A stretch of 64,000 nt of DNA from Escherichia phage phiWec188. The position numbers and the translations under genes were made by a program. The DNA is taken from sequence record LC739537.1; one strand, written 5' to 3'. Positions 1,349 through 60,774 of the stretch are shown here, piece after piece (the first letter of the stretch is position 1; the number at the start of each line of letters is the position of its first letter). The notes under the pieces were generated by a model that saw nothing but the letters and a program-made list of their open reading frames with translations, made no database searches and was not told where the DNA came from.

Positions 1349-1978
1349 TTAATAGATTTGTTTCAGAAGCATACACATGCGTCCAGTTTCATCCCCTGTA
1401 GATTCCAAGTACAAGGAACCCAAACCACCAATACCGTGAGGATCTTTGGTAGCGTAATAAGAGGTGAATCCAAAAGCTGATCCGGCTTTAGCTCCCAGTC
1501 GGTAGTTGCTTATAATTGGGAACACACTTAAAAGTTGCTCAAGAGCTTGATCAGACTGAAGACACAAGTTATAAAAGAACACATCAAAGGATTTATTCAA
1601 CCCAACATATGTGTTAATTGTATCTCGTTTTGTACCTGTGAAACGGGCGAAGATATCAATAATGTCCCCACGAGTCCCCGAAGAGGCAACACGATAAGCC
1701 CTGATTTTTAAAATTGTGCGGTACTCTTCATCATCAGAACCATTTCGTTCAATACCCATCTCTTCACCAAGGAGATCAAGATAATCCCCTGTGGCTGTAG
1801 ATATTAAACGGTGTTTAGCAAGATAGATCATTGCCTGATCTATCTTTTGCTTTTCACTTGATACGATGTAGAGGAGCTTGACAATGTTAGGGGAAGATTT
1901 AAAATCTTCAATCAACAGATCTTTAACGTCTTCATTGATATTCTCCCAAGTCGTTACATGGTCAACACTCACTGCCAT
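1349..1978 (-). CDS. hypothetical tail/baseplate-associated protein
   Basis: 209-aa ORF, ATG start, tightly packed between fibre genes. Confidence 0.4.
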   Translation of the reverse strand: MAVSVDHVTTWENINEDVKDLLIEDFKSSPNIVKLLYIVSSEKQKIDQAMIYLAKHRLISTATGDYLDLLGEEMGIERNGSDDEEYRTILKIRAYRVASSGTRGDIIDIFARFTGTKRDTINTYVGLNKSFDVFFYNLCLQSDQALEQLLSVFPIISNYRLGAKAGSAFGFTSYYATKDPHGIGGLGSLYLESTGDETGRMCMLLKQIY

Positions 1979-19116: not shown

Positions 19117-19664
19117 TATTTGTCCCTACGATAATATGATACAGGCCCGTAGTTTCGCAGATAGTTTACGTTACGTGTTTTACGATCTACACTGGCAACA
19201 TTACCTAAACCATTCACGGAATTAGGATCGCTGTTGACACGATCGATTTCACGAGCATCTACACCACCAATCAGAACACGACTTGTTGCACCACGTCCAG
19301 CGGTACATCCTGGAATAACCATTAAGCCGTTCAGGTAGTTGTTGTAGATATCTTCCCAAGGAGATTTGTATTCTACTTGACCGTTACTAAATTTAACTTC
19401 TACTTCCACTTCGCCCATCTTTTCACGGCGGGACATTGCACCGCCACTTTGACTGTTGTTATTTAAAACATCAGTATTCCACAGGTATTCCAGAACAGAA
19501 ATTAAACTGTTCCACAGAACAGCACACTTATTAGAGTCGGCGTTACCAATAATATCGATCCACGTCTGGATAATCTGAATCAACACTGCGTCTGGCAAAG
19601 TTTCTTGAGACGGATTATAAACAAGGATTCGAACCATTGGTGCCAATTCAGTAGCAATCAGCAT
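19116..19664 (-). CDS. head-tail adaptor protein
   Basis: 182-aa ORF. Confidence 0.4.
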   Translation of the reverse strand: MLIATELAPMVRILVYNPSQETLPDAVLIQIIQTWIDIIGNADSNKCAVLWNSLISVLEYLWNTDVLNNNSQSGGAMSRREKMGEVEVEVKFSNGQVEYKSPWEDIYNNYLNGLMVIPGCTAGRGATSRVLIGGVDAREIDRVNSDPNSVNGLGNVASVDRKTRNVNYLRNYGPVSYYRRDK

Positions 19665-19673
19665 AACTTCTCC

Positions 19674-20048
19674 TTACTTTTTACGGAGTGATCGTTTCTT
19701 GGCTGGTGAATCTACTGCTTCAACTTTCAGAACTTCCTGTTCGACTTCGATCTCTTTGTAATCTTCGAAGCTGACAAGGAAATAGCCCATGTGCTCTTCG
19801 CTACTAAACGGATGAACCAACAGACCAGTTTCTTCACGCAGACGTTGTAAGAAATGAATAAAATTACCACCTAAAGCAACACGACCATCTTTCAGATAGA
19901 AAGACATTGGAGGCGCTTGAGTGAGAGTCTTCTCTGCATCCAGATTGCTCACGAGCTTAGAGAAATCCTGAATCATTTCGTGGTAGCTGAAGTAACGTTT
20001 TAATTGTGGGTTTGACATTATAATCTCCTCGGTGTATATTGTTCTCAT
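19674..20048 (-). CDS. hypothetical virion protein
   Basis: 124-aa ORF directly after capsid-gene terminator. Confidence 0.35.
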   Translation of the reverse strand: MRTIYTEEIIMSNPQLKRYFSYHEMIQDFSKLVSNLDAEKTLTQAPPMSFYLKDGRVALGGNFIHFLQRLREETGLLVHPFSSEEHMGYFLVSFEDYKEIEVEQEVLKVEAVDSPAKKRSLRKK

Positions 20049-20082
20049 AACAAAAAAGGCTCGCCCATCACGGACGAGCCTC
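20046..20082 (-). terminator. strong rho-independent terminator after major capsid gene
   Basis: Minus strand: AGGCTCG-tccgtgatggg-CGAGCCT hairpin followed by TTTTTTGTT. Confidence 0.75.
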
Positions 20083-20100
20083 TTTTAGAACAGAGTTCTA

Positions 20101-21099
20101 TTAAGCAGTGGTCAGACGAACGATCAGTTCTGGGCGAACGTTAACTGCCAGAAGAGAGAATTCAGACTGAAGACTTACAGTACGGTGCTCACTGATCATG
20201 AACGTGTACAGTTCACGAGCAACAGTGTTAGCCAGTTCTGGAGTATCAGCAGGAGCGTAGTGCGCCTGGAACATATCCGCGATACCCATAGGCAGAACAT
20301 ATGCTTCACCAGCAGGGATGTTACCGTGAATATCTTCGATGTAGGTTACGCCGTTCCATTCGAACACCTGAACGTCCATGTTACCGTTCAGACGGTCACG
20401 CAGGAGGTTAGGAGTACCCTGGAAGTACTGGTAAGCCTGGCGAACGAACGGAGAGTTAACCAGAGAAGCGAAGAACTCACGAGAACACAGAGCAACGATA
20501 CGAGTAGCGGTAGAACCGTCTTGTTTCTCGTCGATGATGTATGCACGAGCTTCTTGTTCAACGGTAGCCGCTGGAGAAACAGTGGTAGAAGAGAAATCTA
20601 CAGCAACTGATTTCTGGGTAGCGTTCCACTCGGTGTACCAGTTGTACGCAGAGTTAGCAGCGCCGCCGCCAGTGTATGCACGACCCATTACTGCTTCAGC
20701 AAAGATCTTCTCTTTGGTTTTTGCAGCATCACGCAGAATCTGCGTCATATAACGGTTAACTACTTCTGCTTCAGTACGCAGAGAGTCGTTGATACCAGCC
20801 ATAGCGAAGCTACGGAAAGACTGGATATCTTGAGCTTTGATGTTCTTATCAAGTGGGAAGAATGGGATACGGAACACTTTGACTTCTGGAGTATCCATAG
20901 TCAGGAAGTTACGCTCACCACCACGTTCACGGGCAGGGATCAGACCATCTTGAGTTTTTTGTTTGCCGATTTCAACAACGGTAGTTGCATGGTACTGTAC
21001 ATCAAACAGACCCAGGCTGGCAATCAGTGTATCAGGAGTATCCTGAAGTTCGATCATTGGGCTGAAATCAACAACCTGATCTAAAATTACTGCTGGCAT
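20101..21099 (-). CDS. major capsid protein (putative)
   Basis: 332 aa; ATG with AGGAG RBS; follows scaffold-like gene and precedes strong terminator, as expected for the most highly expressed late gene. Confidence 0.55.
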   Translation of the reverse strand: MPAVILDQVVDFSPMIELQDTPDTLIASLGLFDVQYHATTVVEIGKQKTQDGLIPARERGGERNFLTMDTPEVKVFRIPFFPLDKNIKAQDIQSFRSFAMAGINDSLRTEAEVVNRYMTQILRDAAKTKEKIFAEAVMGRAYTGGGAANSAYNWYTEWNATQKSVAVDFSSTTVSPAATVEQEARAYIIDEKQDGSTATRIVALCSREFFASLVNSPFVRQAYQYFQGTPNLLRDRLNGNMDVQVFEWNGVTYIEDIHGNIPAGEAYVLPMGIADMFQAHYAPADTPELANTVARELYTFMISEHRTVSLQSEFSLLAVNVRPELIVRLTTA

Positions 21100-21121
21100 T
21101 ATATTAATCTCCTATCAAAAA

Positions 21122-21514
21122 TTAAGAAGTGAAAACGACTTTTTCAGTCAGTTTCAGATCACGAGTTTCCAGTGCTGCTACGCCAGCGTCGTCAATCAGA
21201 TTACCGTTGCTATAGAATACAGCAAAACGGTTCAGAGTCAGGTCGCGTACACCAACAACGGCGGTGAAAGTGTCACCAACTGCAACATCATCGATACCGA
21301 ACAGAGCGTCAGTCCACAGCAGAACTTTAGCAGCGTCAGCAGCGGCAGCAGCTTCAGTGTTGTCAGCTTTCAGTACGGAACCAATTTTCATGGTTGCGGT
21401 TTTAACCAGGTTTACTTCGCGTACACAGTGTCCGAGGTCAGAGCTAAAAACTCCACCCAGAACCAGGTGTCCGAATTCCTGGCGAGAGTTAGATAAAGTA
21501 ATTCCTTTAGCCAT
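21122..21514 (-). CDS. head decoration/auxiliary capsid protein
   Basis: 130-aa Ala/Val-rich ORF between scaffold-like and capsid genes. Confidence 0.35.
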   Translation of the reverse strand: MAKGITLSNSRQEFGHLVLGGVFSSDLGHCVREVNLVKTATMKIGSVLKADNTEAAAAADAAKVLLWTDALFGIDDVAVGDTFTAVVGVRDLTLNRFAVFYSNGNLIDDAGVAALETRDLKLTEKVVFTS

Positions 21515-21533
21515 TTAATTTAATCTCCTAAGA

Positions 21534-22652
21534 TTATTGTTTCTGGGCTTTTTTGAGTTCGGCAGCTTTCTGACGAATCAGTTCAGATGCAGACTTGGCA
21601 ACAACTTCAACATTGGCAACATCAGCGCCTTGTTCTTTACCAAACTCTTTCTTAACTGCTTCAACTTCTGCACGGGCTTTTTCGAATGCGTTAACAACAG
21701 TTTCAGCGATCTCTTTATTATCGATCAGGTATTTAACCAGAGCTTCAACTTTTTCTTCTTCTACGAAAGCGTAGGACTTAACAACAGTGGTGTACTCTTC
21801 TTCGATACGAGCCAGTTCAGCTTTACGAAGTTCTTCTGCTGCGAGTTCTGCTTTAGCGATCTTTTCCTGTGCTGCCAGTTCTGCTTGTTCACGGGCTTCT
21901 GTCGCTGCTTTTTCTACAGCTTCAGCAATCTGTGCTTTCATCAGGTCTTGGAATTCGGCAGATTTCAGGAATTCTTCTTTGTTAATATTTTCCAAAGGTA
22001 ATTCTCCTTTATTGATTCCAGTTGTGTTTGCAGATTTGTCACCTGCGGGGTTAGCCTCTGCATCCACAGAGTTCTTATTGGTTTGAGCATTCTGTGCTTT
22101 CACCAGATAATCTTTAACTTGATCGTGTTTCAGAGCACCTTTAATAAGATCGCCAAGAGCATCTTCGATCAGGTCTTCAAAGAAATCGACGGAAACCATA
22201 ACGTCACCATCAACAACTTGATAATCGGTAGTACGTACAACAGGTTTAGCAACTTCTTCGAGTTCAACAACTAAACCGTTCAAAGTAAAGTTTACGGCAA
22301 ACATACCGTGATCAGAACAGAAGATTGCAACGTTAGCATCAAAGTCTACATCTGCCAGCCAAACCCAGTCCCAACATGTAGAGAACTTTTCGTTTACAGC
22401 GTTGGCGATGCGGTCCATTACTTGCTGAATATAACCTTTACGTAATTCAGTAACGTCTTCACCCATTTTAGCCAGAGCTTCGATTTTCTCGAAGGTCACT
22501 TCAGGAGAGCCGTCAGATTTAAAAAGCAGTGGGGTATTGTAACCAGACGCTGCACCACCTTGAAAATCGAAAGTGTATGCGATGTGTGCGCCCAGAGTTT
22601 CTTCCGTAGCTTTACCCGAAAAGTCTACGTTAGTAAGATATGTATTTGCCAC
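21534..22652 (-). CDS. scaffolding protein (putative)
   Basis: 372 aa; C-terminal half is A/E/K-rich predicted coiled coil (AEAVEKAATEAREQAELAAQEKIAKAELAAEELRKAELARIEEE). Confidence 0.45.
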   Translation of the reverse strand: MANTYLTNVDFSGKATEETLGAHIAYTFDFQGGAASGYNTPLLFKSDGSPEVTFEKIEALAKMGEDVTELRKGYIQQVMDRIANAVNEKFSTCWDWVWLADVDFDANVAIFCSDHGMFAVNFTLNGLVVELEEVAKPVVRTTDYQVVDGDVMVSVDFFEDLIEDALGDLIKGALKHDQVKDYLVKAQNAQTNKNSVDAEANPAGDKSANTTGINKGELPLENINKEEFLKSAEFQDLMKAQIAEAVEKAATEAREQAELAAQEKIAKAELAAEELRKAELARIEEEYTTVVKSYAFVEEEKVEALVKYLIDNKEIAETVVNAFEKARAEVEAVKKEFGKEQGADVANVEVVAKSASELIRQKAAELKKAQKQ

Positions 22653-28835: not shown

Positions 28836-28914
28836 TGGAGGCGGGAATCGGATTCGAACCGATGATCTCCAGCATATGAAACTGGCGAGGACGACCAAAC
28901 TCCTCTATCCCGCT
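28836..28914 (-). tRNA. tRNA-Met (anticodon CAT)
   Basis: Manual fold: acceptor stem, D-stem GAGG/CCTC, anticodon stem CCAGT/GCTGG with loop TTCATAT, T-arm ATCGG-TTCGAAT-CCGAT, encoded CCA. Position 1:72 is A-C mismatched. Confidence 0.65.
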
Positions 28915-28918
28915 ATTA

Positions 28919-28991
28919 GGTGTCCCGTGCTGGATTCGAACCAGCATCACAATAGTTGTGGATCTCTTATCCTGTAAGTCTAACGGGAAAC
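28919..28991 (-). tRNA. tRNA-like element / probable tRNA pseudogene
   Basis: Canonical T-arm GCTGG-TTCGAAT-CCAGC and 6/7-bp acceptor stem, but no 5-7-5 anticodon stem-loop can be drawn (CACAA-CTA-TTGTG has a 3-nt loop). Confidence 0.3.
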
Positions 28992-29065
28992 TGGTTGTTT
29001 CGACAAGAATCGAACTTGTATCTCACGATTATCAGTCGTGGGTTCTACCATTGAACTACGAAACA
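28992..29065 (-). tRNA. tRNA-Ile (anticodon GAT)
   Basis: Acceptor TGTTTCG/CGAAACA, D-stem GTTC/GAAC, anticodon stem CACGA/TCGTG with loop CTGATAA, T-arm ACAAG-TTCGATT-CTTGT, CCA encoded. Confidence 0.7.
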
Positions 29066-29071
29066 TTTAAT

Positions 29072-29146
29072 TGGTCAGCATGGAGAATTTCGAAATCTCG
29101 GCCCCCTCGTCCCAAACGAGGTGCTCTGCCACTGAGCTACACGCTG
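29072..29146 (-). tRNA. tRNA-Pro (anticodon TGG)
   Basis: D-arm GCTC-AGTGGCA-GAGC, anticodon stem CCTCG/CGAGG with loop TTTGGGA, CCA encoded; T-stem has one T-T mismatch. Confidence 0.6.
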
Positions 29147-29346
29147 TTATTAAAAAATCTCACGTCTTATACAAGCTAACCTTTTGCCTGACGCATGAAA
29201 TTTAAATACATTCTAAAGGTACACCGTAAAAGATTGTCGGGGCGATACTTCAAAAACATACCGATCCGTAAATCGATAATCAGACAAACTTCGACGGCTC
29301 CTCGTTTTTAACTTCACACTTAAGGTAGTGACTCACCTTTGTTATA

Positions 29347-29422
29347 TGGCTGGTCTGTCTGGATTTGAACCAAACCTACGACAGTCAAAGTGTCGTGTGC
29401 TACCGGACTACACTACAAACCA
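29347..29422 (-). tRNA. tRNA-Gln (anticodon TTG)
   Basis: Acceptor TGGTTTG/CAGACCA, anticodon stem CGACA/TGTCG with loop CTTTGAC, T-arm TTTGG-TTCAAAT-CCAGA, discriminator G, CCA. Confidence 0.7.
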
Positions 29423-29512
29423 TTTAATGAAGGGCAACCAGAAGAGGTGTGAGAGAAGGAGAAAACCATAAGTAAAAGAGAAAGTTTTCTGGCAACCCTT
29501 TATTAAATAATT

Positions 29513-29586
29513 TGGAGCGTTCTACGAGTTTCGAACTCGTGCCGCCGACTTGGAAGGACGGAATGCTACCGCTACACCAAGAACGC
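29513..29586 (-). tRNA. tRNA-Gly (anticodon TCC), one mismatch in anticodon stem
   Basis: Acceptor GCGTTCT/AGAACGC, anticodon loop CTTCCAA, T-arm ACGAG-TTCGAAA-CTCGT, discriminator T, CCA; anticodon stem CCGTC/GTCGG has a T-T pair. Confidence 0.55.
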
Positions 29587-30082
29587 CCTACATCTTTACT
29601 ATACTACATTTTACTATCAGTTGTCAATAGTTTTATTGGGTGGGACAGTGACGAGTATCCCATTGGGTGACTAACCCTACGTTCGGTTGTGATTAATCTC
29701 CTGGGTGTCGCTTGCAACACTGGAAAACTCTCACGTCGATGGGAGAATCCGCTTCTTCTTTACCCCATCCAACCCTACTCCGGTCAAGTTTCAGGTGACT
29801 CTTTTTGTGATCAACACAATACTAAGAACACTGTCTTTCGAGCAGACCTTGTGCACAGGATACGACGATCAATCACAGTGCTCTTAATGTTGTGTTGTGA
29901 ATATTAACCTCGGAACTCATTACCGCGCTTCGGCTCGACCTTATTACAGGTTAGTGAATGTCTTTCTTCCGCTTACATTCAATAAATTTGCTTTCTTCAC
30001 AACGATAAGAACACTTAACAGAAGATAGGTCTGATTGCCTCGGATGATTTCTCAGTAGCCTAAATGTTCTTACCTGTTATGT

Positions 30083-30158
30083 TGGTGCTCCAAGTAGGAC
30101 TCGAACCTACGACCTCATGCTTACAAGGCAAGTGCTCTACCAACTGAGCTATTGAAGC
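30083..30158 (-). tRNA. tRNA-Thr (anticodon TGT)
   Basis: D-arm GCTC-AGTTGGTA-GAGC, anticodon loop CTTGTAA, T-arm GTAGG-TTCGAGT-CCTAC, CCA; overall very close to enterobacterial tRNA-Thr as I recall it. Confidence 0.7.
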
Positions 30159-30277
30159 GTATTGCGCCCCTTCAGCCATGCTTGATGTTGACCAGAACAC
30201 AGTTAAACTGTGGGAGGAGGAACACCGCAGGGGGCTTCAGTTGGACGACTTACAGGGAGCGACCCTGTTTCTTTTCT

Positions 30278-30354
30278 GGGACTCGGCAGGATTCGATACC
30301 TGCAATTCCAGAAGCCTCTTGGCGACTGAGGGTTTACCTTAACTCTACAAGTCC
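30278..30354 (-). tRNA. tRNA-like element (atypical, no canonical anticodon arm, no encoded CCA)
   Basis: 7-bp acceptor stem GGACTTG/CGAGTCC and T-arm-like GCAGG-TATCGAAT-CCTGC (8-nt loop), but the central region does not fold into a 5-7-5 anticodon arm. Confidence 0.25.
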
Positions 30355-30510
30355 ATAATTCTTAAATACTTTGGAGCCTTACTGACAAACCGTTAGTTTG
30401 TAACATAGCGTATTTCCATTCTGGGGCACCGCCTGTGAATGTAATTCCAATACAAACTTTCTCAAGATCAAACCAATTATCAAATAACATAAGAACCTCC
30501 AGTTATAATT

Positions 30511-30594
30511 TGGTGTGAGATGATGGATTCGAACCACCGCGCCTTTCAGAACAGATTTACAGTCTGCTGCAATCGACCACTCTGCCAATCTCAC
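30511..30594 (-). tRNA. tRNA-Tyr (anticodon GTA)
   Basis: Perfect acceptor stem GTGAGAT/ATCTCAC, anticodon stem GCAGA/TCTGT with loop CTGTAAA, long variable arm, T-arm GGTGG-TTCGAAT-CCATC, CCA. Confidence 0.7.
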
Positions 30595-30719
30595 AAAATT
30601 ATTTTTAAAGTAGCCAGTATTCGCGGTACTGACTATGCGGTATCGGGGGATGGTGAGAGCCATCTGCCGAAAGTTTACTCTGTTAAAGTAAGAAACAACA
30701 AGCTACATTAAAAACAACT

Positions 30720-30805
30720 TGGCGGTAGATGTAGGACTCGAACCTACACGCCGTTTCCGACTACAGTTTAGCAAACTGTCGTGGCTACCATTTCACCAAT
30801 CTACC
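30720..30805 (-). tRNA. tRNA-Ser (anticodon GCT)
   Basis: Acceptor GGTAGAT/ATCTACC, anticodon stem ACAGT/ACTGT with loop TTGCTAA, long variable arm, T-arm GTAGG-TTCGAGT-CCTAC, discriminator G, CCA. Confidence 0.7.
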
Positions 30806-30811
30806 TAAATT

Positions 30812-30901
30812 TGGAGGAAGGTAATGGAGTCGAACCATCACCGTATCTCTACAATGGGCCAGGGTTCAAATCTGGTTGCGTACCACTACGCCCTACCTTC
30901 C
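30812..30901 (-). tRNA. tRNA-Ser (anticodon TGA)
   Basis: Acceptor GGAAGGT/ACCTTCC, anticodon loop TTTGAAC on stem CCAG/CTGG, long variable arm, T-arm GATGG-TTCGACT-CCATT, CCA. Confidence 0.6.
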
Positions 30902-31136
30902 ATACATTTAATCTAACATAAAACGATGTTGATTGTCAACACCTTTTAAAACATTTTATTATGAATGGTGACTCCACCAACCCCCGTTCTCCACGAACGG
31001 TACTCTTCGAGCAATCTACCCTTGCAATCAAACGTTGTACACCGTTAGCTTGCTCATGCATATTTGCCTCATTCTCTGCCAACCATGATCAGTGGTAGGG
31101 TTCAAATCACTTGAGCTAATTCATACTAAAATGTTC

Positions 31137-31211
31137 TGGTGTCTTTACAAGGAATCGAACCTTGACTAAGAGTTTAGAAGACTCCTGTGCTATCCATTAC
31201 ACCATAAAGAC
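31137..31211 (-). tRNA. tRNA-Arg (anticodon TCT)
   Basis: Acceptor GTCTTTA/TAAAGAC, D-arm GTGT-AATGGATA-GCAC, anticodon loop CTTCTAA, T-arm CAAGG-TTCGATT-CCTTG, CCA. Confidence 0.7.
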
Positions 31212-31213
31212 GT

Positions 31214-31288
31214 TGGTGGCCCTGACTGGTTTCGATCCAGTTGCCTATCGGTTATGAGCCGACTGCTCTCCCATTGAGCTACAGGGCC
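31214..31288 (-). tRNA. tRNA with CAT anticodon (Met or lysidine-type Ile2)
   Basis: Acceptor GGCCCTG/CAGGGCC, D-arm GCTC-AATGGGA-GAGC, anticodon loop CTCATAA, T-arm ACTGG-ATCGAAA-CCAGT, CCA; acceptor resembles Ile2-type tRNAs. Confidence 0.6.
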
Positions 31289-52100: not shown

Positions 52101-52298
52101 ATGAAAGACCAAATGATTAATGGACCTCGTGTAACAGTTAGTCCTAAAACTTTTGCATCTCTTCTGGACGACACTGGTGAGGTTTATACTTACACAAGAG
52201 ATTCACTGCCTCTGCCTGAAAGTGCACAGGGTTCACGTTCGCTTTTTTATAAAGGTGTTCTTTTTACGGAAGCAAAAGAAGACAAGGAGACTAAATGA
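52101..52298 (+). CDS. hypothetical protein
   Basis: 65-aa ORF directly upstream of rmlB. Confidence 0.4.
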   Translation: MKDQMINGPRVTVSPKTFASLLDDTGEVYTYTRDSLPLPESAQGSRSLFYKGVLFTEAKEDKETK

Positions 52299-53287
52299 GA
52301 TACCTGGTAACAGGTGGTCTTGGTTTCATTGGGAGCGCCGTAGTGCGCTCTCTTTGTCAAGATCCTAAAAATGAAGTTTTTGTTATTGATAAAATGGGCT
52401 ATGCTGCTGACATTGAAAATGTCGGAGATATTACTCATGCGAAACTAAGCATGACAGATCTGGTCGATGAAGCACAAGTTAAAAACTTGGTTGTTGAGTG
52501 TAACCCTGATTTCATCATTCACTTGGCAGCAGAGAGTCATGTAGACAATTCGATCAAGAATCCACGAGCTTTTATCGACTCTAACATCATCGGTACATAT
52601 AATCTGTTAGAAGCTGCAAGGCTTCTTCCTAAGAACAAGCTGAAGATGTTTGTACACGTCTCTACAGACGAAGTGTACGGCGATATGGAGGACTCTGGTG
52701 CTCCCTTTACCGAAGAGACAGCTTATGCTCCTTCAAGCCCATACAGCGCGTCTAAGGCGGCATCTGATCACCTTGTCAAAGCTTGGCACCGTACTTACGA
52801 TTTACCTGTAGTGATAACCAACTGTTCCAATAACTTTGGGCCTTACCAACACCCTGAAAAATTGATTCCAAAAGTGATCACGAACATCTTGACAGACCAA
52901 CCTATTCCCGTATACGGTAAAGGCGATCAGGTACGAGATTGGCTTTTCGTAGAAGATCATGCACGAGCTATTATTTTGGCAGCAACGGGCGGGGAAGTAG
53001 GACAAACCTACAACGTAGGTACACGCAATCCTAAAACAAACATGGAAATCATTTACATGATTTGTGATTACATGGATGCTGTTCACCCATCCTTCGGGAC
53101 ATACCCTGCTTCCGGTTTGATTAGTTTTGTTGAAGATCGTAAAGGTCATGACTTGCATTATGAAATCAATCCTGCTAAGATTGAATCTGAACTGGGTTGG
53201 AAAGCAAACTCTACATTCGAAGAAGACTTGTACTCTACGATTGAATGGTATTTAAATAATCCTCAATGGTGGAGTATGAAGATTTAA
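52295..53287 (+). CDS. rmlB: dTDP-glucose 4,6-dehydratase
   Basis: N-terminus [18 protein letters not shown] (Rossmann GxxGxxG), [21 protein letters not shown] (SDR catalytic YxxxK); near-collinear with bacterial RmlB. Confidence 0.85.
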
Positions 53288-53295
53288 GGAGGGTT

Positions 53296-54174
53296 ATGAA
53301 AGGTATTATTTTAGCGGGAGGAAGTGGAACCCGCCTACATCCTGTAACACGCAGTGTGAGCAAGCAATTGCTCCCTGTGTATGACAAACCTATGATTTAT
53401 TATCCTTTATCAGTCTTGATGTTGTCAGATATTAAGGATATCTTAATCATCACAACCCCAGGCGATCAGGAAGATTTTGAGTATCTTCTTGGAGATGGGT
53501 CTATGTTTGGAATAAAGATCACTTACGCAATGCAGTCTGAACCACGAGGTCTTGCAGATGCTTTCATCATCGGTAAAGATTTTATTGGGGAAGATTCTGT
53601 TGCTCTTATTTTAGGGGATAACTTGTTCTTCGGACAAAGTTTCGGAAAACTCCTTATCCAAGCCAGCGAAATGGTGGATGTTTGGGGTGGAGCTTGTATC
53701 TTCGGGTATCTGGTGAAAGATCCTGAACGATTCGGTGTTGTTGAGTTTGGAAGTAATCGCCAAGCTATCTCTATTGAAGAGAAACCGGAACATCCCAAAT
53801 CAGACTATGCAGTCACGGGTTTGTATTTCTATGACAACTCTGTTGTTCAACGTGCATTGGAAGTAACTCCTTCCGATCGTGGAGAACTGGAGATCACAGA
53901 TATCAATCGCAGCTACCTCGAAGACAGGAAGTTACAAGTGGAAGTTCTTGGAAGAGGATTCACTTGGTTGGATACAGGGACACACGCCAGTCTAATGGAA
54001 GCAGGTCAATTCGTGCAGACTATTGAGAACTGCCAAGGATTGAAGATTGCGTGCCTGGAAGAGATTGCTTTCAAAAAAGGGTGGATTTCTTTAGAGACTT
54101 TGGTGTATCATGGCAACTCATTGAAGAAAACAGAGTACGGGCAATATCTGTTAAAATTAGCGGAGGGTAAATGA
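53296..54174 (+). CDS. rmlA: glucose-1-phosphate thymidylyltransferase
   Basis: [39 protein letters not shown] closely matches the RmlA N-terminal signature; ATG at 53296 with AAGGAGGG RBS. Confidence 0.85.
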
Positions 54175-54731
54175 AAATAAAAGAATTAAGTATTCCTGGT
54201 CTGGTTGTCTTTAAACCTCAAGTTTACAAAGATGATCGTGGTTCCTTCACGGAGACGTTTAACGAGAAGATTTACGAAGAGGTTATTGGCAAACAAACGT
54301 TTGTTCAGGATAACCATTCATTCTCTACTTTAGGTGTTCTTCGCGGAATGCACTTTCAAGTAAATAACCCGCAAGGTAAGCTTGTACGTTGCACACGAGG
54401 TGAAGTTTTTGACGTGGCTGTAGATCTTCGTGAAGGTAGTCCAACCTTCGGACAATGGGAAGGTGTGATTCTTAGTGGGTGTAACAATAAACAGTTGTGG
54501 ATTCCACCTGGCTTTGCACATGGTTTTGTTGTAACCTCTTATGAAGCCAACTTTGAATACAAGTGCACCAACTACTACGATCCGGCATCTGAACGTAGTT
54601 TGTTGTGGAACGATCCTACTGTGAATATTGATTGGGGTTTTGATATGATTTTCAATGATGAGAATTTTGTACCCATCATTTCGGAAAAGGATGCACAAGC
54701 TAAAACACTGAAGGAGCTTATGGGATCATGA
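54171..54731 (+). CDS. rmlC: dTDP-4-dehydrorhamnose 3,5-epimerase
   Basis: 186 aa cupin-type protein; DDRGSF, RGMHFQ and [11 protein letters not shown] match RmlC conserved blocks. Confidence 0.8.
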
Positions 54732-55570
54732 AAACATATTTAGTATTGGGTGGTAATGGTCAATTAGGTCAGGCACTGCGTAAAGTGGTGCCGGAGAATG
54801 TGACTTTGGTGTATCCAGAAAAGCGTGTAGATATCACCAGTTTTGAAGCTGTGCGGAAAGCGATCATGGAAACCCCAAATATTAACGGTGTTATCAACTG
54901 TGCGGCATACACTGCTGTGGACAAAGCCGAGACAGATGTTGATGCAGCTATGGCTGTAAATTTACACGGGGCAGCTAATATTGCTGCCTTCTGTAAGGCT
55001 TGGGATATTGACATGGTGCATATTTCTACTGACTATGTGTTCAACAGCGATAAACCGTTGTTCCATCAGGATGAACCCAACCCTATCAATGTTTACGGGT
55101 TATCTAAAAGTTTGGGTGAAGCTGCTGTTCGTGGTATCTACCATAAAGCTTTTATTATCCGCACGGCTTCTGTGTATAGCGAGTTTGGTAACAACTTCCT
55201 GAAGACTATGGTATCTCGTTACAACGATGGTCAAAGAAACTTCTCGGTAGTTGCAGATCAAACATCTCGACCAACTTATGCCCCAGATTTGGCTAAGATG
55301 ATTTTCCAAGTGTTGGAAACAGGATATAACACCCGTACTTTGCATTACGCTGGGAACATCACTGTTTCGTGGCACCAGTTCGCAAAAATGATATTGACAC
55401 GTATGCCTGAATCTGTTATTATACACCCGACCTCTGCTGCAACCTATAATTCGGCAGCGATGCGACCAGCAAAGTCTATACTAATTACGTCTGGTTGGAA
55501 CGAACCTTCAAGCGTCGGACAAGGTATTGAAGAATCTTTAGCAGTATTACTTAATAAGGAGAGAGCATGA
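54728..55570 (+). CDS. rmlD: dTDP-4-dehydrorhamnose reductase
   Basis: 280 aa; NCAAYTAVDKAE, STDYVF, NVYGLSK...GE, GNNFLKTM and RPTYA correspond to RmlD conserved segments. Confidence 0.8.
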   Translation: MKTYLVLGGNGQLGQALRKVVPENVTLVYPEKRVDITSFEAVRKAIMETPNINGVINCAAYTAVDKAETDVDAAMAVNLHGAANIAAFCKAWDIDMVHISTDYVFNSDKPLFHQDEPNPINVYGLSKSLGEAAVRGIYHKAFIIRTASVYSEFGNNFLKTMVSRYNDGQRNFSVVADQTSRPTYAPDLAKMIFQVLETGYNTRTLHYAGNITVSWHQFAKMILTRMPESVIIHPTSAATYNSAAMRPAKSILITSGWNEPSSVGQGIEESLAVLLNKERA

Positions 55571-57325: not shown

Positions 57326-57823
57326 ATGGTACAGACAATTATAGATCGGACTGGTATTGATGAATGTTACCAAACTGGGCTTGTGAAGCCTAACGAGTTC
57401 CGACAGATTTGCGTGAATCATATTGAGAAAGAAATTGCACTAACTTTGGAGAACCTTACCCTCCGAGACAAGCTGTCAATGTTTGTGGCTTGGTGTAAAG
57501 GTGAAGATTGGTTATTGGCCCATTTTCAAGAACTTTCTGATAGTCAAGAAGGCTTATATGAATGTATAATAGGAATAGCTGGCTCCAATCCTGAACTTCT
57601 CCATTTGGAAGAAGAAGAGGCGAAGTTACTGTTCTTAAGCAACATGTTCAATCGTAAAGCATTGCTTGTTCGTGAGTGTAGTGATCTTTTAAATCATCCA
57701 CTGGCGATCACAAACGAAATACTGGTTGACAAAGAGACATTACGTGCGATAGACTATCTGCGCAAGTATGTCAACGGCGGGAAAGCAGTTCTTAAAACAT
57801 TAACAGAGGAGGAAGCAGAATGA
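57326..57823 (+). CDS. hypothetical protein
   Basis: 165-aa ORF, AGGGAGG RBS. Confidence 0.4.
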   Translation: MVQTIIDRTGIDECYQTGLVKPNEFRQICVNHIEKEIALTLENLTLRDKLSMFVAWCKGEDWLLAHFQELSDSQEGLYECIIGIAGSNPELLHLEEEEAKLLFLSNMFNRKALLVRECSDLLNHPLAITNEILVDKETLRAIDYLRKYVNGGKAVLKTLTEEEAE

Positions 57824-58506
57824 CTACAATTATCGCAACCAAAAACAAGATCCTTAGCGACGGTAAAGTAACTTTCGGTGGTCGTGTAGATTCAACCAAT
57901 TTCAAGAAAGTACGTAAGATTGGGGATTATCTCGTAGGTGGCGCAGGGCGTTTAACTTCGGTTTTAGCTTTCTTCCAGTGGTTCGAACAGAACCTGCAAT
58001 GTGAAGCGGCGCGTGAGGCAGTGCCTGGGTTGATGATCAGTTCTAACCCTGATCGTGAAGATGAAGAGTTTATTGCTCTCGTTGTTCACCCAGACGGACG
58101 TATTTTCCTGCATGAAGGTAATGATCCTACCCGTGCATACCCAATCGACGAAGAATACTACGCAGTAGGCAGTGGTTCCGATTTTGCGCTCGCAGCACTG
58201 GATGGTGGTGCTTCTCCAGAAGCTGCTATGGAGGTTGCCAAGAAGCGTGACGCATACTCTGGTGGCGAAACATTCGTTGAAGAATTAGACGAGATCATCG
58301 AACTGACTGACGAAGATCTCGAAAACTTCACCAAACAAGAACTGATCAACCTGCTTAAGTTTGGCGATCCTGCTGGTGAAGAAACTCCTCGTGACGTGGC
58401 AGGTGACGAGACGGCAGGAGAAGTTGTAGTAGAAAAAGACTTGACTTCAAAACCGGAAAATATTAATCTCGTAAATGTAGCGGATTTCGAGAATCCCGCT
58501 TCTTAA
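57820..58506 (+). CDS. HslV-like Ntn-hydrolase peptidase (proteasome beta-type)
   Basis: Begins MTTIIATKNKILSDGKVTFGG (Thr immediately after Met, as in HslV TTIV...); GGAGRLTS and AVGSGSDFALAAL match HslV blocks as recalled. Confidence 0.55.
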   Translation: MTTIIATKNKILSDGKVTFGGRVDSTNFKKVRKIGDYLVGGAGRLTSVLAFFQWFEQNLQCEAAREAVPGLMISSNPDREDEEFIALVVHPDGRIFLHEGNDPTRAYPIDEEYYAVGSGSDFALAALDGGASPEAAMEVAKKRDAYSGGETFVEELDEIIELTDEDLENFTKQELINLLKFGDPAGEETPRDVAGDETAGEVVVEKDLTSKPENINLVNVADFENPAS

Positions 58507-58512
58507 TAAAAC

Positions 58513-58534
58513 TGCCCCTTCGGGGGCATTTCTT
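58513..58534 (+). terminator. rho-independent terminator candidate
   Basis: TGCCCC-TTCG-GGGGCA hairpin followed by TTTCTT. Confidence 0.5.
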
Positions 58535-58551: not shown

Positions 58552-58989
58552 ATGTTGAACGTTCCTGTTAAATTCGTCGATAGCTGTGTTAATGCTTACC
58601 AACAAACTTGTAAACGTGCCTCAAACTGTTTGCAGTCTTTGATTCAAACGCGGTACGTGATCCAAAAGAAAAGAAAGTGGTTTGGTAAGGATTCTTATAG
58701 TGTTAATGCGTTCGGGGAGTATCAACTCCAGTATGACGATAACATGCAACACATCTTAGAGTTTTTACTGATAAAAGATAAAATCTCCCCTGCGGATTAC
58801 CAGTTACTTAAATTCTACGATCAGAGTTTGTCTATTGAGGAAGTTATTCAAGATATCCTTTCTCGTAAGACAGATAAGAACACTGTTGGTATTACAAACT
58901 TAGAGATGCAATTGCTCAATGAGATCTTTTTGTTTGTGGAAGATGAGTCTGTAACTAAGGAGGAGCTTTTAAATGGCTTTAAGCTATGA
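58552..58989 (+). CDS. hypothetical protein
   Basis: 145-aa ORF. Confidence 0.4.
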   Translation: MLNVPVKFVDSCVNAYQQTCKRASNCLQSLIQTRYVIQKKRKWFGKDSYSVNAFGEYQLQYDDNMQHILEFLLIKDKISPADYQLLKFYDQSLSIEEVIQDILSRKTDKNTVGITNLEMQLLNEIFLFVEDESVTKEELLNGFKL

Positions 58990-59481
58990 TCGTCCAGAGT
59001 CCGATTACTATCCGACTCCGCAAAAAGCGATTAACTCGTTATTTAGCATTATTGATTTTAAAAATTTGAAAGAGGAAGGATTTACATTTGCAGAACCGTG
59101 TAGAGGACAAGCAGCGGCTATTTACCGTCACTTTCCTGAAGGTTCTCAGTATTGTGAGCTTGAAGAAGGTAAAGATTATTTTAGTCACGTATGGGAAAAT
59201 CGTCCCGACATTATAATCACGAATCCTCCATTCAAGCTGGCATTAGAGTTCTTGGAAAAGAGCTTGAAAGAAGCAGACGTGTCAGTCTACCTGCTTCGCC
59301 TGGGATTCCTTGAGTCAAAGAAACGTCGAGCGTTTCATCAAGAAAACCCCCTACGAATTTGATTGTACTCTCCGAACGTCCTTCGTTCGTAGCAGGTGGA
59401 ACAGATAAGACAGCGTATGCTTGGTACGTATACGATCCAAAACAAATTTTGGGTCTAACTCAACCATTTTATTTCGTTTAA
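58973..59481 (+). pseudogene. Dam-like DNA N6-adenine methyltransferase, reading frame interrupted at a C5 tract
   Basis: N-terminal 129-aa ORF (58973-59362) has DYYPTP and ITNPPF motifs; stops just after AAAACCCCC (59343-59351). Adding one C restores a 170-aa frame ending at 59481 (...ENPPTNLIVLSERPSFVAGGTDKTAYAWYVYD...). Confidence 0.45.
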
Positions 59482-59491
59482 GGAGCACACT

Positions 59492-59728
59492 ATGGCTAAA
59501 TTTACTATGACCGTTTCTATTGATTTTGATGATGAGGACGGAGGCATTAACTTAGGTATTGCTCAGAGCCTGGAAGGTGATTTGAACCCGACACAAGCAG
59601 CTATGGCGGTATTCTTTAAAGATACCATAACAGTTACAGCAACACATTCTGCAAATCAAACTGTAGATTACGGTAGCATGGTTCAAGCCTTGGTTGATGC
59701 TCAAAACGGTGAAGATTGGGATGATTAA
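59492..59728 (+). CDS. hypothetical protein
   Basis: 78-aa ORF, AAGGAG RBS. Confidence 0.4.
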   Translation: MAKFTMTVSIDFDDEDGGINLGIAQSLEGDLNPTQAAMAVFFKDTITVTATHSANQTVDYGSMVQALVDAQNGEDWDD

Positions 59729-59931
59729 TGGCTTATAATTATTATTGCGTTTACGCAAATGAAGCAAAGAAAGGCGACACTGGCACTAACGTCTATGCAG
59801 AATCAGAAACACATGCAAAAGAAATTGGTGCGATCCTTCTGTCACGTTGGACAGGTGGTAACTATTCTGCTGTGGATTTGTTCGCAGAAATGGATGATAC
59901 CATCCAAGAAGATACTATCACCACAACCTGA
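59728..59931 (+). CDS. hypothetical protein
   Basis: 67-aa ORF. Confidence 0.35.
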   Translation: MAYNYYCVYANEAKKGDTGTNVYAESETHAKEIGAILLSRWTGGNYSAVDLFAEMDDTIQEDTITTT

Positions 59932-59995: not shown

Positions 59996-60187
59996 ATGCA
60001 AGAGAATGAAGAGGTAGTTGTTAAAAAGTTCCCGACACGTACACAGGCAGTCAACTTTGCTTCTGATTTGCTTGTAGATGTGGAAGGAGTTCTCATTAGA
60101 CATGAAGGGGATTCCTGGAATGTCTCTTATAACGTAAACAGATCAATTATCTATTTAGGAGAAGAGAACTTCTCTCGTATAGATTGA
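59996..60187 (+). CDS. hypothetical protein
   Basis: 63-aa ORF, AAGGAGG RBS. Confidence 0.35.
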   Translation: MQENEEVVVKKFPTRTQAVNFASDLLVDVEGVLIRHEGDSWNVSYNVNRSIIYLGEENFSRID

Positions 60188-60201
60188 TCGAAGGAGTAGT
60201 T

Positions 60202-60774
60202 ATGCGTTCTACTTACACAGGTAAGATTAATTCTGGTATCATTTTAGCAGTAGCAGGAATCATCAGCAAAACTTTCAAAGTGGCAAACCTACCAGAGTGT
60301 GTAGATTTTGACCACGTATTCAATCCATTAAATCCTTCTCGTTGTGTTGTTCGTAGCAACATTGAGAATCCAAACGAGAACTTGTTTTATGTAACATCGC
60401 CTTCACAAAGTATTCTAAACCAAGTGGAGGCTAAAATTATTACCGAAGGTAGTTATTTCTCATTGCTACCTTGTAAATCGGTGGCGATTGAAGATAGTAT
60501 CACCTTCGCAAATAACTTGGTCTTGACCATGTTCATGGTTTCTGATAAAGACTGTGGAGAGGATATGGTTTTAGCTGTAAGGAATGTTTATGACACATTG
60601 GGTATTGCTTATAGCTGTAAGTTGTGCGATGATTATAAATCTTGTTCAGACTTTTACATAAATGGTGTTCGGGTATGTCGTGTTGAATCCTACTGGGTGC
60701 AAGACACATACGTAACAGTAGCGAACGTGATCAATGAACCTATGTTCAGCCACGCTTTAGCGTTAATCATTTGA
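60202..60774 (+). CDS. hypothetical protein
   Basis: ATG at 60202 with AAGGAG RBS (track ORF from TTG 60184). Confidence 0.4.
   Translation: MRSTYTGKINSGIILAVAGIISKTFKVANLPECVDFDHVFNPLNPSRCVVRSNIENPNENLFYVTSPSQSILNQVEAKIITEGSYFSLLPCKSVAIEDSITFANNLVLTMFMVSDKDCGEDMVLAVRNVYDTLGIAYSCKLCDDYKSCSDFYINGVRVCRVESYWVQDTYVTVANVINEPMFSHALALII

What the first reader, a model, noticed from the sequence alone, without database searches (positions are those of the whole stretch)
58973..59481. Dam-like N6-adenine methyltransferase gene interrupted at an A4C5 homopolymer
The ORF with MTase-like motifs (DYYPTP, ITNPPF) stops eight codons after the tract AAAACCCCC; the conserved-looking C-terminal region continues in another frame and is restored by a single C insertion. 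This could be a sequencing error at a homopolymer, a recent pseudogenisation, a slippage-based phase-variable switch, or programmed frameshifting. The outcome matters for whether phage DNA is adenine-methylated against host restriction.
Basis: seen in the sequence. Interest (0 to 1): 0.5.

Follow-up and report, generated by a model that had tools for sequence, protein, structure and literature searches.

The report
Frameshifted small phage methyltransferase gene
One C is missing from a run of six C's in a small methyltransferase gene of coliphage phiWec188, which cuts the protein short; the near-identical sister phage and every other relative examined carry the intact gene, so this is an ordinary recent mutation or a sequence error, not a regulatory device.

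Summary
ORF 58973-59362 (129 aa; motifs DYYPTP, EPCRG, NPPF) stops just after A4C5 (59343-59351), three sense codons later rather than eight. The remaining 43 codons run in the -1 frame to TAA at 59481.

The window is Escherichia phage phiWec188: the 129-aa product is exactly BDU13251.1. Over all 64 kb it differs from its sister isolate phiWec190 at two positions: one SNP (1354) and this missing C. phiWec190 has C6 (CCC CCT) and an intact 169-aa gene. Eleven other relatives are also intact and have no homopolymer (CCA CCT, CCA CCA or CCT CCA).

A conserved programmed frameshift and a conserved phase-variable tract are therefore rejected. What remains is a recent slippage deletion in a lineage-specific C6 run (about 0.55) or a consensus error (about 0.33). 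Only the reads can separate these.

The truncation removes three beta-strands and five invariant residues, so the short product is probably inactive.

The protein has a class I SAM-methyltransferase fold. It is closest to gamma-type N6-adenine enzymes (M.TaqI, HsdM) and small RNA m6A enzymes (METTL5), and it is not in the Dam family. Its substrate is unknown.

Published plating data show that phiWec188 plates no worse than phiWec190. Ordinary; low interest.

The parts
58957..58963 (+). Shine-Dalgarno sequence AAGGAGG, 9 nt upstream of the ATG of the methyltransferase gene
   Evidence: Read directly from the sequence.
58973..59362 (+). Truncated ORF of 129 aa. It contains motif X (DYYPTP), motif I (FAEPCRG) and motif IV (ITNPPF), and ends ...HQENPLRI*. 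It is identical to BDU13251.1 of phage phiWec188.
   Evidence: exact-sequence look-up.
59343..59351 (+). A4C5 tract. The C run at 59347-59351 is one C shorter than the C6 run of phiWec190. This is the only indel between the two phages in 64 kb.
59344..59350 (+). A_AAC_CCC, a heptamer of the form X_XXY_YYZ in register with the ORF. A -1 ribosomal slip here would give exactly the wild-type 169-aa protein. It is not conserved in relatives and its presence is no more than chance would give.
   Evidence: sequence; 0.57 such heptamers per 510 nt of ORF in this window; absent from relatives.
59350..59481 (+). The remaining 43 codons plus TAA of the gene, now in the -1 frame (PTNLIVLSERPSF...YAWYVYD...YFV*). 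They encode three beta-strands and the invariant residues R136, P137, F139, W151 and D155.

Best explanation
The window is phage phiWec188. Its copy of a small (169-aa) SAM-dependent methyltransferase gene, conserved in this phage group, has lost one C from a C6 run.

Most likely order of events (inferred):
1. In the common ancestor of phiWec188 and phiWec190, a synonymous CCA-to-CCC change in a Pro-Pro pair (CCA CCT to CCC CCT) created the C6 run.
2. Replication slippage then removed one C in phiWec188.

Consequences (inferred):
- Translation shifts frame after Pro127 and stops three codons later.
- The 129-aa product keeps the SAM-binding and NPPF motifs but lacks the last three beta-strands of the Rossmann-like sheet and five invariant residues, so it is very probably inactive.
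- The gene is thus a very young pseudogene, at most a weak hypomorph through rare spontaneous -1 slippage on A_AAC_CCC.
- The downstream gene (ATG at 59492) has its own AAGGAG and should be little affected.

Shown: the deletion relative to all relatives, the lineage-specific origin of the run, the loss of conserved structure, and the methyltransferase fold.
Inferred: that the deletion is in the phage DNA and not only in the assembly, the direction of change, and the loss of activity.
For: - The 129-aa product is exactly BDU13251.1 of phiWec188.
- Window versus phiWec190: 99.997% identity over 64,001 columns, with one mismatch (window position 1354) and one gap (C5 versus C6 at 59351).
- phiWec190, PsgM04F, phiWec179, nieznany and eight IMG/VR loci all have an intact 169-aa ORF. 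Only phiWec190 has CCC CCT; the others have CCA CCT, CCA CCA or CCT CCA.
- In a tblastn search of the phage collection, 457 of 533 matching records cover at least 80% of the protein in one place, and all 60 sampled rows are single-piece matches.
- Homologues are almost all 160-230 aa long, most of them 165-180 aa.
- All other homopolymers in the window have the same length in phiWec190: 204 runs of 5 or more bases, including 38 of 6 or more. The assemblies therefore show no general homopolymer problem.
- The two isolates are distinct. There is a separate SNP, and their plating efficiencies differ by up to about 1 log.
- The AF2 model (mean pLDDT 89.8) places strands 129-132, 149-154 and 166-168 after the break.
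- The invariant residues R136, P137, F139, W151 and D155 lie after the break.
Against: - No reads are available, so a consensus error at the C run cannot be excluded.
- The sequencing platform for the phage genomes could not be found. The 2023 PHAGE paper is not held. The same laboratory used DNBSEQ short reads plus Nanopore for the host genome.
- The direction of change is inferred. The path from the ancestral CCCACC by loss of the A (giving C5) followed by gain of a C in phiWec190 also needs two events.
- phiWec188 shows no plating defect relative to phiWec190. That fits either a dispensable gene or an intact gene that was mis-sequenced.
Confidence: 0.55

Rival explanations
1. Consensus or assembly error. 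The phiWec188 DNA really has C6, as phiWec190 does, and one C was dropped from the deposited sequence. The gene is then intact and nothing biological has happened.
For: - The difference is a one-base length change in a G/C homopolymer, the classic site of such errors. In phiWec190 this run is one of only two C6 runs in the 64-kb region.
- The two phages are otherwise almost identical.
- They have the same qualitative host range, and phiWec188 has no plating defect.
- The same laboratory has used Nanopore reads in hybrid assemblies.
Against: - All other homopolymer runs of 5 or more bases in the window (204 in total) agree in length between the two independent assemblies, so there is no sign of an error-prone platform.
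- Short-read consensus errors at a C5/C6 run are rare (general knowledge).
- The authors annotated the 129-aa CDS as it stands.
Confidence: 0.33
2. A nascent slippage switch or population polymorphism. The newly created C6 run toggles between C6 (ON) and C5 (OFF) at an appreciable rate. The two sewage isolates have captured the two states, so methylation becomes heterogeneous in the population.
For: - Two sister isolates from urban sewage samples differ by exactly one repeat unit in a coding homopolymer of a methyltransferase gene.
- Both routes from the ancestral CCCACC need two events, so back-and-forth changes cannot be excluded.
Against: - The run is only 5-6 bases long, whereas known contingency loci use longer G/C runs, usually 8 or more (general knowledge).
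- The run is absent from every other relative.
- No further C5 or C6 alleles were found in the viral, metagenome or genome collections.
- No other repeat-length variants were found.
Confidence: 0.06
3. Programmed -1 ribosomal frameshifting on A_AAC_CCC (59344-59350) produces the full-length enzyme from the C5 allele, together with a 129-aa short form.
For: - The heptamer has the X_XXY_YYZ form and is in register.
- A -1 slip yields exactly the wild-type sequence ...ENPPTNL....
- A predicted hairpin begins 6 nt after the heptamer.
Against: - The arrangement is not conserved. All 12 relatives encode the protein in one frame, and 11 of them lack the heptamer.
- The hairpin is no more stable than in shuffled sequence (z = -0.95; 28 of 200 shuffles fold at least as well).
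- The same hairpin sequence is present in the in-frame phiWec190 gene.
- Such heptamers occur by chance at 0.57 per 510 nt of ORF in this window.
- There is no Shine-Dalgarno-like stimulator upstream, and no Rfam frameshift element matches.
Confidence: 0.02

Closest known systems
Gamma-type N6-adenine DNA methyltransferases (catalytic domain of M.TaqI; type I HsdM; PacII M; M.BseCI; MmeI)
   Same: - The linear motif order is X (DYYPTP, compare xFYTP), then I (EPCRG), then IV (NPPF).
- A weak profile alignment to PacII M covers exactly these motifs.
   Different: - The protein is only 169 aa and has no target-recognition domain.
- No Pfam or NCBIfam model reaches its threshold.
- Sequence identity to solved structures is 20% or less.
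- The substrate and target sequence are unknown.
Small RNA m6A methyltransferases (human METTL5, Pyrococcus PH1948, Erm/KsgA)
   Same: - They are of similar size and are single-domain, with an (N/D)PP(F/Y/W) motif.
   Different: - There is no significant sequence similarity.
- The gene sits in lytic phage genomes and is usually annotated as a DNA methyltransferase, although some records call it TrmN6 or dimethyladenosine transferase.
- Nothing here tests RNA against DNA as the substrate.
Dam-family orphan methyltransferases of phages and E. coli (alpha-type, GATC; Pfam PF02086) and the phage 'Dam' family PF05869
   Same: They are phage-borne orphan amino-methyltransferases with a (D/N)PP(Y/F) motif, and they are presumed to act on DNA adenine.
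   Different: - Neither Pfam family is matched.
- Motifs I and IV are adjacent, with no intervening recognition domain, which is not the alpha-type order.
- No Dam structure appears among the 50-60 best fold matches shown by each search.
Phase-variable mod/methyltransferase genes ('phasevarions' of Haemophilus, Neisseria and Helicobacter)
   Same: A change in the length of a coding homopolymer switches a methyltransferase ORF in and out of frame.
   Different: Here the run is 5-6 bases long, is specific to one lineage, and is seen as a single difference between two isolates. There is no conserved tract and no evidence of reversible switching.
Programmed -1 frameshift sites (E. coli dnaX, IS elements, the phage tail chaperone G/GT)
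   Same: A heptamer of the form X_XXY_YYZ in register, with a hairpin predicted 6 nt downstream.
   Different: The site is not conserved, the hairpin is not significant, and the relatives make the same protein from a single frame.

Membership tests
Dam family (alpha-type N6-adenine methyltransferase, Pfam PF02086 MethyltransfD12) and phage Dam (PF05869) | Significant match to the family profile | tested here: not met
   A Pfam scan of the restored 169-aa protein up to E = 1 lists only EcoRI_methylase (E = 0.075) and MTS (E = 0.11), both below their cut-offs. There is no Dam model among the matches.
Dam family (alpha-type) | Alpha-type motif order: motif I, then the target-recognition domain, then motif IV (DPPY) | tested here: not met
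   Motif I (EPCRG, residues 41-45) and motif IV (NPPF, residues 84-87) are about 40 residues apart with no inserted domain. A motif X-like DYYPTP precedes motif I, which is the gamma-type order.
Dam family (alpha-type) | Methylation of GATC | not testable with these tools
   This needs m6A mapping of virion DNA or an enzyme assay.
Gamma-type N6-adenine amino-methyltransferases (M.TaqI/HsdM-like) | Class I SAM-methyltransferase fold | tested here: met
   [not shown]
Gamma-type N6-adenine amino-methyltransferases (M.TaqI/HsdM-like) | Motifs X, I and IV in that order, with (N/D)PP(Y/F) | tested here: met
   DYYPTP (residues 11-16), FAEPCRG (39-45) and ITNPPF (82-87). T15, E41, P42, C43, N84, P85 and P86 are invariant in 55 homologues.
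Gamma-type N6-adenine amino-methyltransferases (M.TaqI/HsdM-like) | Significant sequence-profile match (Pfam N6_Mtase or Eco57I, or a PDB sequence) | tested here: not met
   Nothing reaches threshold in Pfam, NCBIfam or the PDB sequences. The profile of 55 homologues against PDB sequences gives E = 0.047 at best, to PacII M.
Gamma-type N6-adenine amino-methyltransferases (M.TaqI/HsdM-like) | A DNA target-recognition domain or a specificity subunit | tested here: not met
   The 169-aa protein consists of the catalytic domain only. Some distant homologues carry a Cys-rich insert of about 35 aa after RPSF, but this phage's protein does not.
PHROG 799 ('DNA methyltransferase') | Significant match to the family profile | tested here: met
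   E = 9.5e-55, 187.6 bits, residues 4-157. The family name is an annotation, not a tested function.
Programmed -1 ribosomal frameshift site | Slippery heptamer X_XXY_YYZ in the zero frame | tested here: met
   A_AAC_CCC at 59344-59350. Such heptamers are frequent by chance: 0.57 per 510 nt of ORF.
Programmed -1 ribosomal frameshift site | The two-frame arrangement is conserved among relatives | tested here: not met
   All 12 relatives examined encode the protein in one frame, and 11 of them lack the heptamer.
Programmed -1 ribosomal frameshift site | A downstream stimulatory RNA structure more stable than chance | tested here: not met
   MFE = -21.9 kcal/mol against a shuffle mean of -18.9 kcal/mol; z = -0.95; 28 of 200 shuffles fold at least as well. 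No relevant Rfam match.
Phase-variable (contingency) methyltransferase locus | A long simple-sequence tract within the ORF that is retained across strains and varies in length | tested here: not met
   The run is C5/C6 only and is present only in phiWec188/190. Other relatives have CCA CCT, CCA CCA or CCT CCA. No further length alleles were found in the public collections.
Phase-variable (contingency) methyltransferase locus | Length heterogeneity within a population and reversible switching | not testable with these tools
   This needs read pile-ups or amplicon sequencing of lysates.

The most novel reading that the evidence does not exclude
phiWec188 (C5, OFF) and phiWec190 (C6, ON) could be the two states of a newly born slippage switch, created by a single synonymous CCA-to-CCC change in a phage methyltransferase gene. 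Leaky -1 slippage on A_AAC_CCC, which restores exactly the wild-type protein, would then make the OFF state a hypomorph rather than a null. That would be the birth of a contingency locus in a lytic phage caught in the act.
Probability: 0.06. Interest if true: 0.45.

Novelty: already known. Interest (0 to 1): 0.1.

Why it matters
As a phenomenon it matters little. A one-base homopolymer frameshift in a single isolate is routine, and the record should be annotated either as a pseudogene or corrected.

Its practical value is as a tool. phiWec188 and phiWec190 are a natural, near-isogenic pair: two differences in the 64 kb examined, with the rest of the genome not seen here. If the deletion is real, they differ in a widespread but uncharacterised methyltransferase. 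That enzyme has no recognition domain, is found in 533 phage records (including Vequintavirinae, Phapecoctavirus and SE1-like phages), and is covered by no Pfam or NCBIfam model.

Comparing the m6A patterns of the DNA and RNA of the two phages could reveal the enzyme's substrate and target. The published plating data already suggest that the gene is not needed on the six permissive non-propagating strains tested.

Tried and rejected
Searches that gave nothing useful:
- Pfam, NCBIfam and PDB-sequence searches of the restored protein gave nothing above threshold. The methyltransferase call therefore rests on PHROG 799, the motifs and the predicted fold.
- The 129-aa product is not indexed in the assembly collection. 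It was found by the exact cluster look-up instead.
- Cluster members could not be used for contig look-ups, so relatives were fetched from IMG/VR instead.
- Pattern scans for C4-C7 or CCCACC alleles found only the CCCACC allele, in one IMG/VR contig. These were two scans of metagenome contigs, one of genome contigs and two of viral contigs.
- LC739537 is not in the phage collection.
- The 2023 PHAGE paper that should state the sequencing platform is not held. The later papers give the platform only for the host genome.
- Rfam gave only a sub-threshold partial PhotoRC-I match at 58509-58527, which is irrelevant.

Ideas considered and rejected:
- +1 slippage of tRNA-Pro on CCC-C leads into the wrong frame (from the sequence).
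- Reinitiation at the TTG at 59359, which overlaps the TGA stop, would make a 40-aa C-terminal fragment. There is no Shine-Dalgarno sequence upstream and no evidence that split halves could assemble.
- Transcriptional slippage is unlikely, because runs of 4 A and 5 C are too short (general knowledge).

Full report
**1. The observation**

The ORF starting at ATG 58973 has an AAGGAGG 9 nt upstream. It reads MALSYDRPESDYYPTPQ...FAEPCRG...IITNPPF...AFHQENPLRI and stops at TGA 59360-59362, giving 129 aa. The tract AAAACCCCC lies at 59343-59351.

From 59350 the -1 frame reads PTNLIVLSERPSFVAGGTDKTAYAWYVYDPKQILGLTQPFYFV and ends at TAA 59479-59481. One extra C restores a single 169-codon ORF.

**2. 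Where the window comes from**

- A megablast search of 58600-59800 finds five close phage records, and each matches over 1202 bases against the query's 1201.
- In all five, the corresponding CDS is 510 nt and intact.
- The whole 64,000-base window aligns to Escherichia phage phiWec190 (LC739539.1, reverse strand) at 99.997% identity, with exactly one mismatch (window 1354) and one gap (the missing C at 59351).
- The truncated 129-aa product is exactly BDU13251.1, 'hypothetical protein [Escherichia phage phiWec188]', from a contig of 149,831 bp.

The window is therefore phiWec188. It is the sister isolate of phiWec190: same laboratory, both from urban sewage, same host TK001, and both placed in the proposed species 'Wecvirus wec188' (PMC12695924). 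Its record is not in the phage collection searched here.

**3. The site in relatives**

| Phage or locus | Codons for Asn-Pro-Pro | ORF |
|---|---|---|
| phiWec190 | AAC CCC CCT (C6) | intact, 169 aa |
| PsgM04F, phiWec179, IMG/VR UViG 3300014004_000001 | AAC CCA CCT | intact, 169 aa |
| nieznany and seven more IMG/VR loci | CCA CCA, CCT CCA or CCA CCT | intact, 169 aa |
| phiWec188 (this window) | AAC CCC CT (C5) | broken, 129 aa |

All 12 relatives have no internal stop. The homopolymer is therefore not a conserved feature. It exists only in the phiWec188/190 pair and arose from a synonymous third-position change.

The most economical history is CCA CCT, then CCC CCT (a silent, functional intermediate), then loss of one C in phiWec188. 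The alternative is loss of the A to give C5, followed by gain of a C in phiWec190. It also needs two events, but it passes through a broken intermediate and starts with the deletion of a non-repeated base, so I rate it lower (inference).

Scans of the viral, metagenome and genome collections for C4-C7 alleles found no further examples.

**4. A real mutation or an error?**

The window has 204 homopolymer runs of 5 or more bases, 38 of them of 6 or more. Every one except this run has the same length in the independently assembled phiWec190 genome. Neither assembly therefore shows a general homopolymer problem.

In phiWec190 this run is one of only two C6 runs in the region, so it is a likely site both for replication slippage and for a base-calling slip.

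The two phages are distinct isolates:
- They differ by a separate SNP, D209Y at the last residue of the 209-aa ORF 1349-1978 on the minus strand.
- Their published log EOP values differ by up to about 1 log.

The platform used for the phage genomes could not be established. I put a real deletion at about 0.55 and a consensus error at about 0.33. Only the reads can decide.

**5. What the gene encodes**

- Pfam, NCBIfam and PDB-sequence searches give nothing above threshold.
- PHROG 799 ('DNA methyltransferase') matches at E = 9.5e-55.
- Homologues are numerous (260 at E <= 1e-3 among the candidates scored) and nearly all are 160-230 aa long, most of them 165-180 aa.
- tblastn finds the family in 533 phage records (Phapecoctavirus, Vequintavirinae, SE1-like phages, Vibrio, Listeria and Staphylococcus myoviruses). 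Of these, 457 cover at least 80% of the protein in one place.
- An alignment of 55 homologues shows invariant T15, E41-P42-C43, Y69, N84-P85-P86, F93, S97, R118, R136-P137, F139, W151 and D155.
- The AlphaFold model is confident, with mean pLDDT 89.8 and pTM 0.86.
- Foldseek's best PDB matches are M.TaqI and a type I HsdM subunit, both at E = 6e-5.

Together with the motif order X (DYYPTP), I (EPCRG), IV (NPPF), this makes the protein a minimal class I amino-methyltransferase of the gamma-type N6-adenine kind, without a target-recognition domain.

It is not a member of the Dam family. There is no Pfam match, the motif order differs, and no Dam structure is among the best fold matches shown. 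Whether it acts on DNA or RNA, and at what sequence, is not known. Database annotations range from 'DNA N-6-adenine methyltransferase' to 'TrmN6' and 'dimethyladenosine transferase'.

**6. Consequence of the frameshift**

The break falls after residue 127. The parts lost are strands 129-132, 149-154 and 166-168 of the central sheet and the invariant R136, P137, F139, W151 and D155.

From general knowledge of M.TaqI, an aromatic residue in the C-terminal motif VIII (Phe196) helps hold the flipped adenine, and the invariant F139 may play that part here. This is an inference and was not tested. The 129-aa product is therefore very probably inactive.

**7. Programmed frameshifting and phase variation**

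A_AAC_CCC (59344-59350) is an X_XXY_YYZ heptamer in register, and a -1 slip would recreate exactly the wild-type protein. As evidence for a programmed event this is weak:
- The same heptamer sits in the in-frame phiWec190 gene.
- It is absent from the 11 other relatives.
- Such heptamers occur at 0.57 per 510 nt of ORF in this window.
- The hairpin predicted 6 nt downstream is no better than shuffled sequence (z = -0.95).
- Rfam has no relevant match.

A +1 slip on CCC-C leads into the wrong frame. For phase variation, the run is short and specific to one lineage, and only one length difference between two isolates is known. Both ideas are rejected as evolved mechanisms. Low-level spontaneous slippage or a mixed population cannot be excluded.

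**8. Phenotype data from the literature**

Supplementary Table S1 of PMC12695924 gives log EOP on the six permissive non-propagating strains:

| Phage | Log EOP on the six strains |
|---|---|
| phiWec188 | 0.3, -0.2, 0, -0.7, 0.5, -0.7 |
| phiWec190 | 0, -0.9, -0.7, -0.8, -0.6, -0.9 |

The isolate with the broken gene plates as well or better on every strain, and the two have the same qualitative host range. The BASEL study reports that Vequintavirinae and their relatives are exceptionally sensitive to type II and III restriction systems. Two BASEL phages listed (EduardKellenberger, MaxBurger) carry homologues of this gene.

Nothing therefore supports a strong anti-restriction role. The comparison is confounded, however, because about 86 kb of each genome lies outside this window.

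**9. Verdict**

This is an ordinary single-base homopolymer frameshift in one isolate's copy of a conserved small methyltransferase gene. It is either a very recent pseudogenisation or a consensus error. It is not new as a kind of feature.

Its modest value is that phiWec188 and phiWec190 may form a natural knock-out and wild-type pair for an uncharacterised, widespread phage methyltransferase family.

Noticed in passing
window 1354 (ORF 1349-1978, minus strand): This is the only other difference from phiWec190 in 64 kb: A in the window against C in phiWec190. It changes the last residue of a 209-aa protein from D to Y (...LLKQIY against ...LLKQID). The gene lies directly upstream of the 353-aa tail-fibre gene at 278-1339 (minus strand; 353 residues is the length the authors give for TfpS1). 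This change might underlie the small EOP differences between the two isolates.
   Followed up: partly
window 58973-59481, and alignment A2: The methyltransferase family is widespread (533 phage records) but is covered by no Pfam or NCBIfam model and has no recognition domain. Some distant members carry a Cys-rich insert of about 35 aa (C..C...C.C, zinc-ribbon-like) between the RPSF motif and the TD..YAW motif, possibly an added nucleic-acid-binding module. Annotations in the records conflict: DNA methyltransferase, TrmN6, and dimethyladenosine transferase.
   Followed up: partly
proteins P0133 (80 aa) and P0025 (96 aa), each on record on an ENA metagenome contig of 19,525 bp, probably the same one: This is probably a second, independent split of the same gene in a Phapecoctavirus-like contig. 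The break is at a different site, the GGGAAAAT run encoding ...SHEWEN/RPD... It is either another homopolymer error or another inactivation, and it is not at the C run.
   Followed up: partly
L002 (OR584014.1, 'Pseudomonas phage PsgM04F'): A phage recorded as infecting Pseudomonas coronafaciens pv. garcae is 98.9% identical to the E. coli phages phiWec188/190 across 58600-59800. 'Campylobacter phage B15' also appears among the Phapecoctavirus hits. The host labels of these records deserve caution.
   Followed up: no
window 28836-31288, minus strand: A cluster of 11 tRNA genes: Met x2, Ile, Pro(UGG), Gln, Gly, Thr, Tyr, Ser x2 and Arg(UCU). It matches the tRNA block annotated in phiWec190.
   Followed up: yes
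window about 52295-55570 (mapped from phiWec190 record positions 19343-22618): The phage carries a complete dTDP-rhamnose pathway: glucose-1-phosphate thymidylyltransferase, dTDP-glucose 4,6-dehydratase, the 3,5-epimerase and a reductase. It lies next to nrdA and nrdB. This is the 'sugar-related enzyme repertoire' that the BASEL authors discussed as a possible source of DNA modification.
   Followed up: no
window 59359-59362: The TGA that ends the truncated ORF overlaps a TTG (59359-59361) that opens the 40-codon remainder ORF (sequence ATTTGATTG). There is no Shine-Dalgarno sequence in front of it, so this is probably a coincidence rather than a coupled restart.
   Followed up: partly
window 57820-58506: The gene two positions upstream of the methyltransferase gene (228 aa) is annotated 'peptidase HslV family' in PsgM04F. 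The gene at about 60184-60774 is annotated 'histidyl tRNA synthetase' there. Neither annotation was checked here.
   Followed up: no
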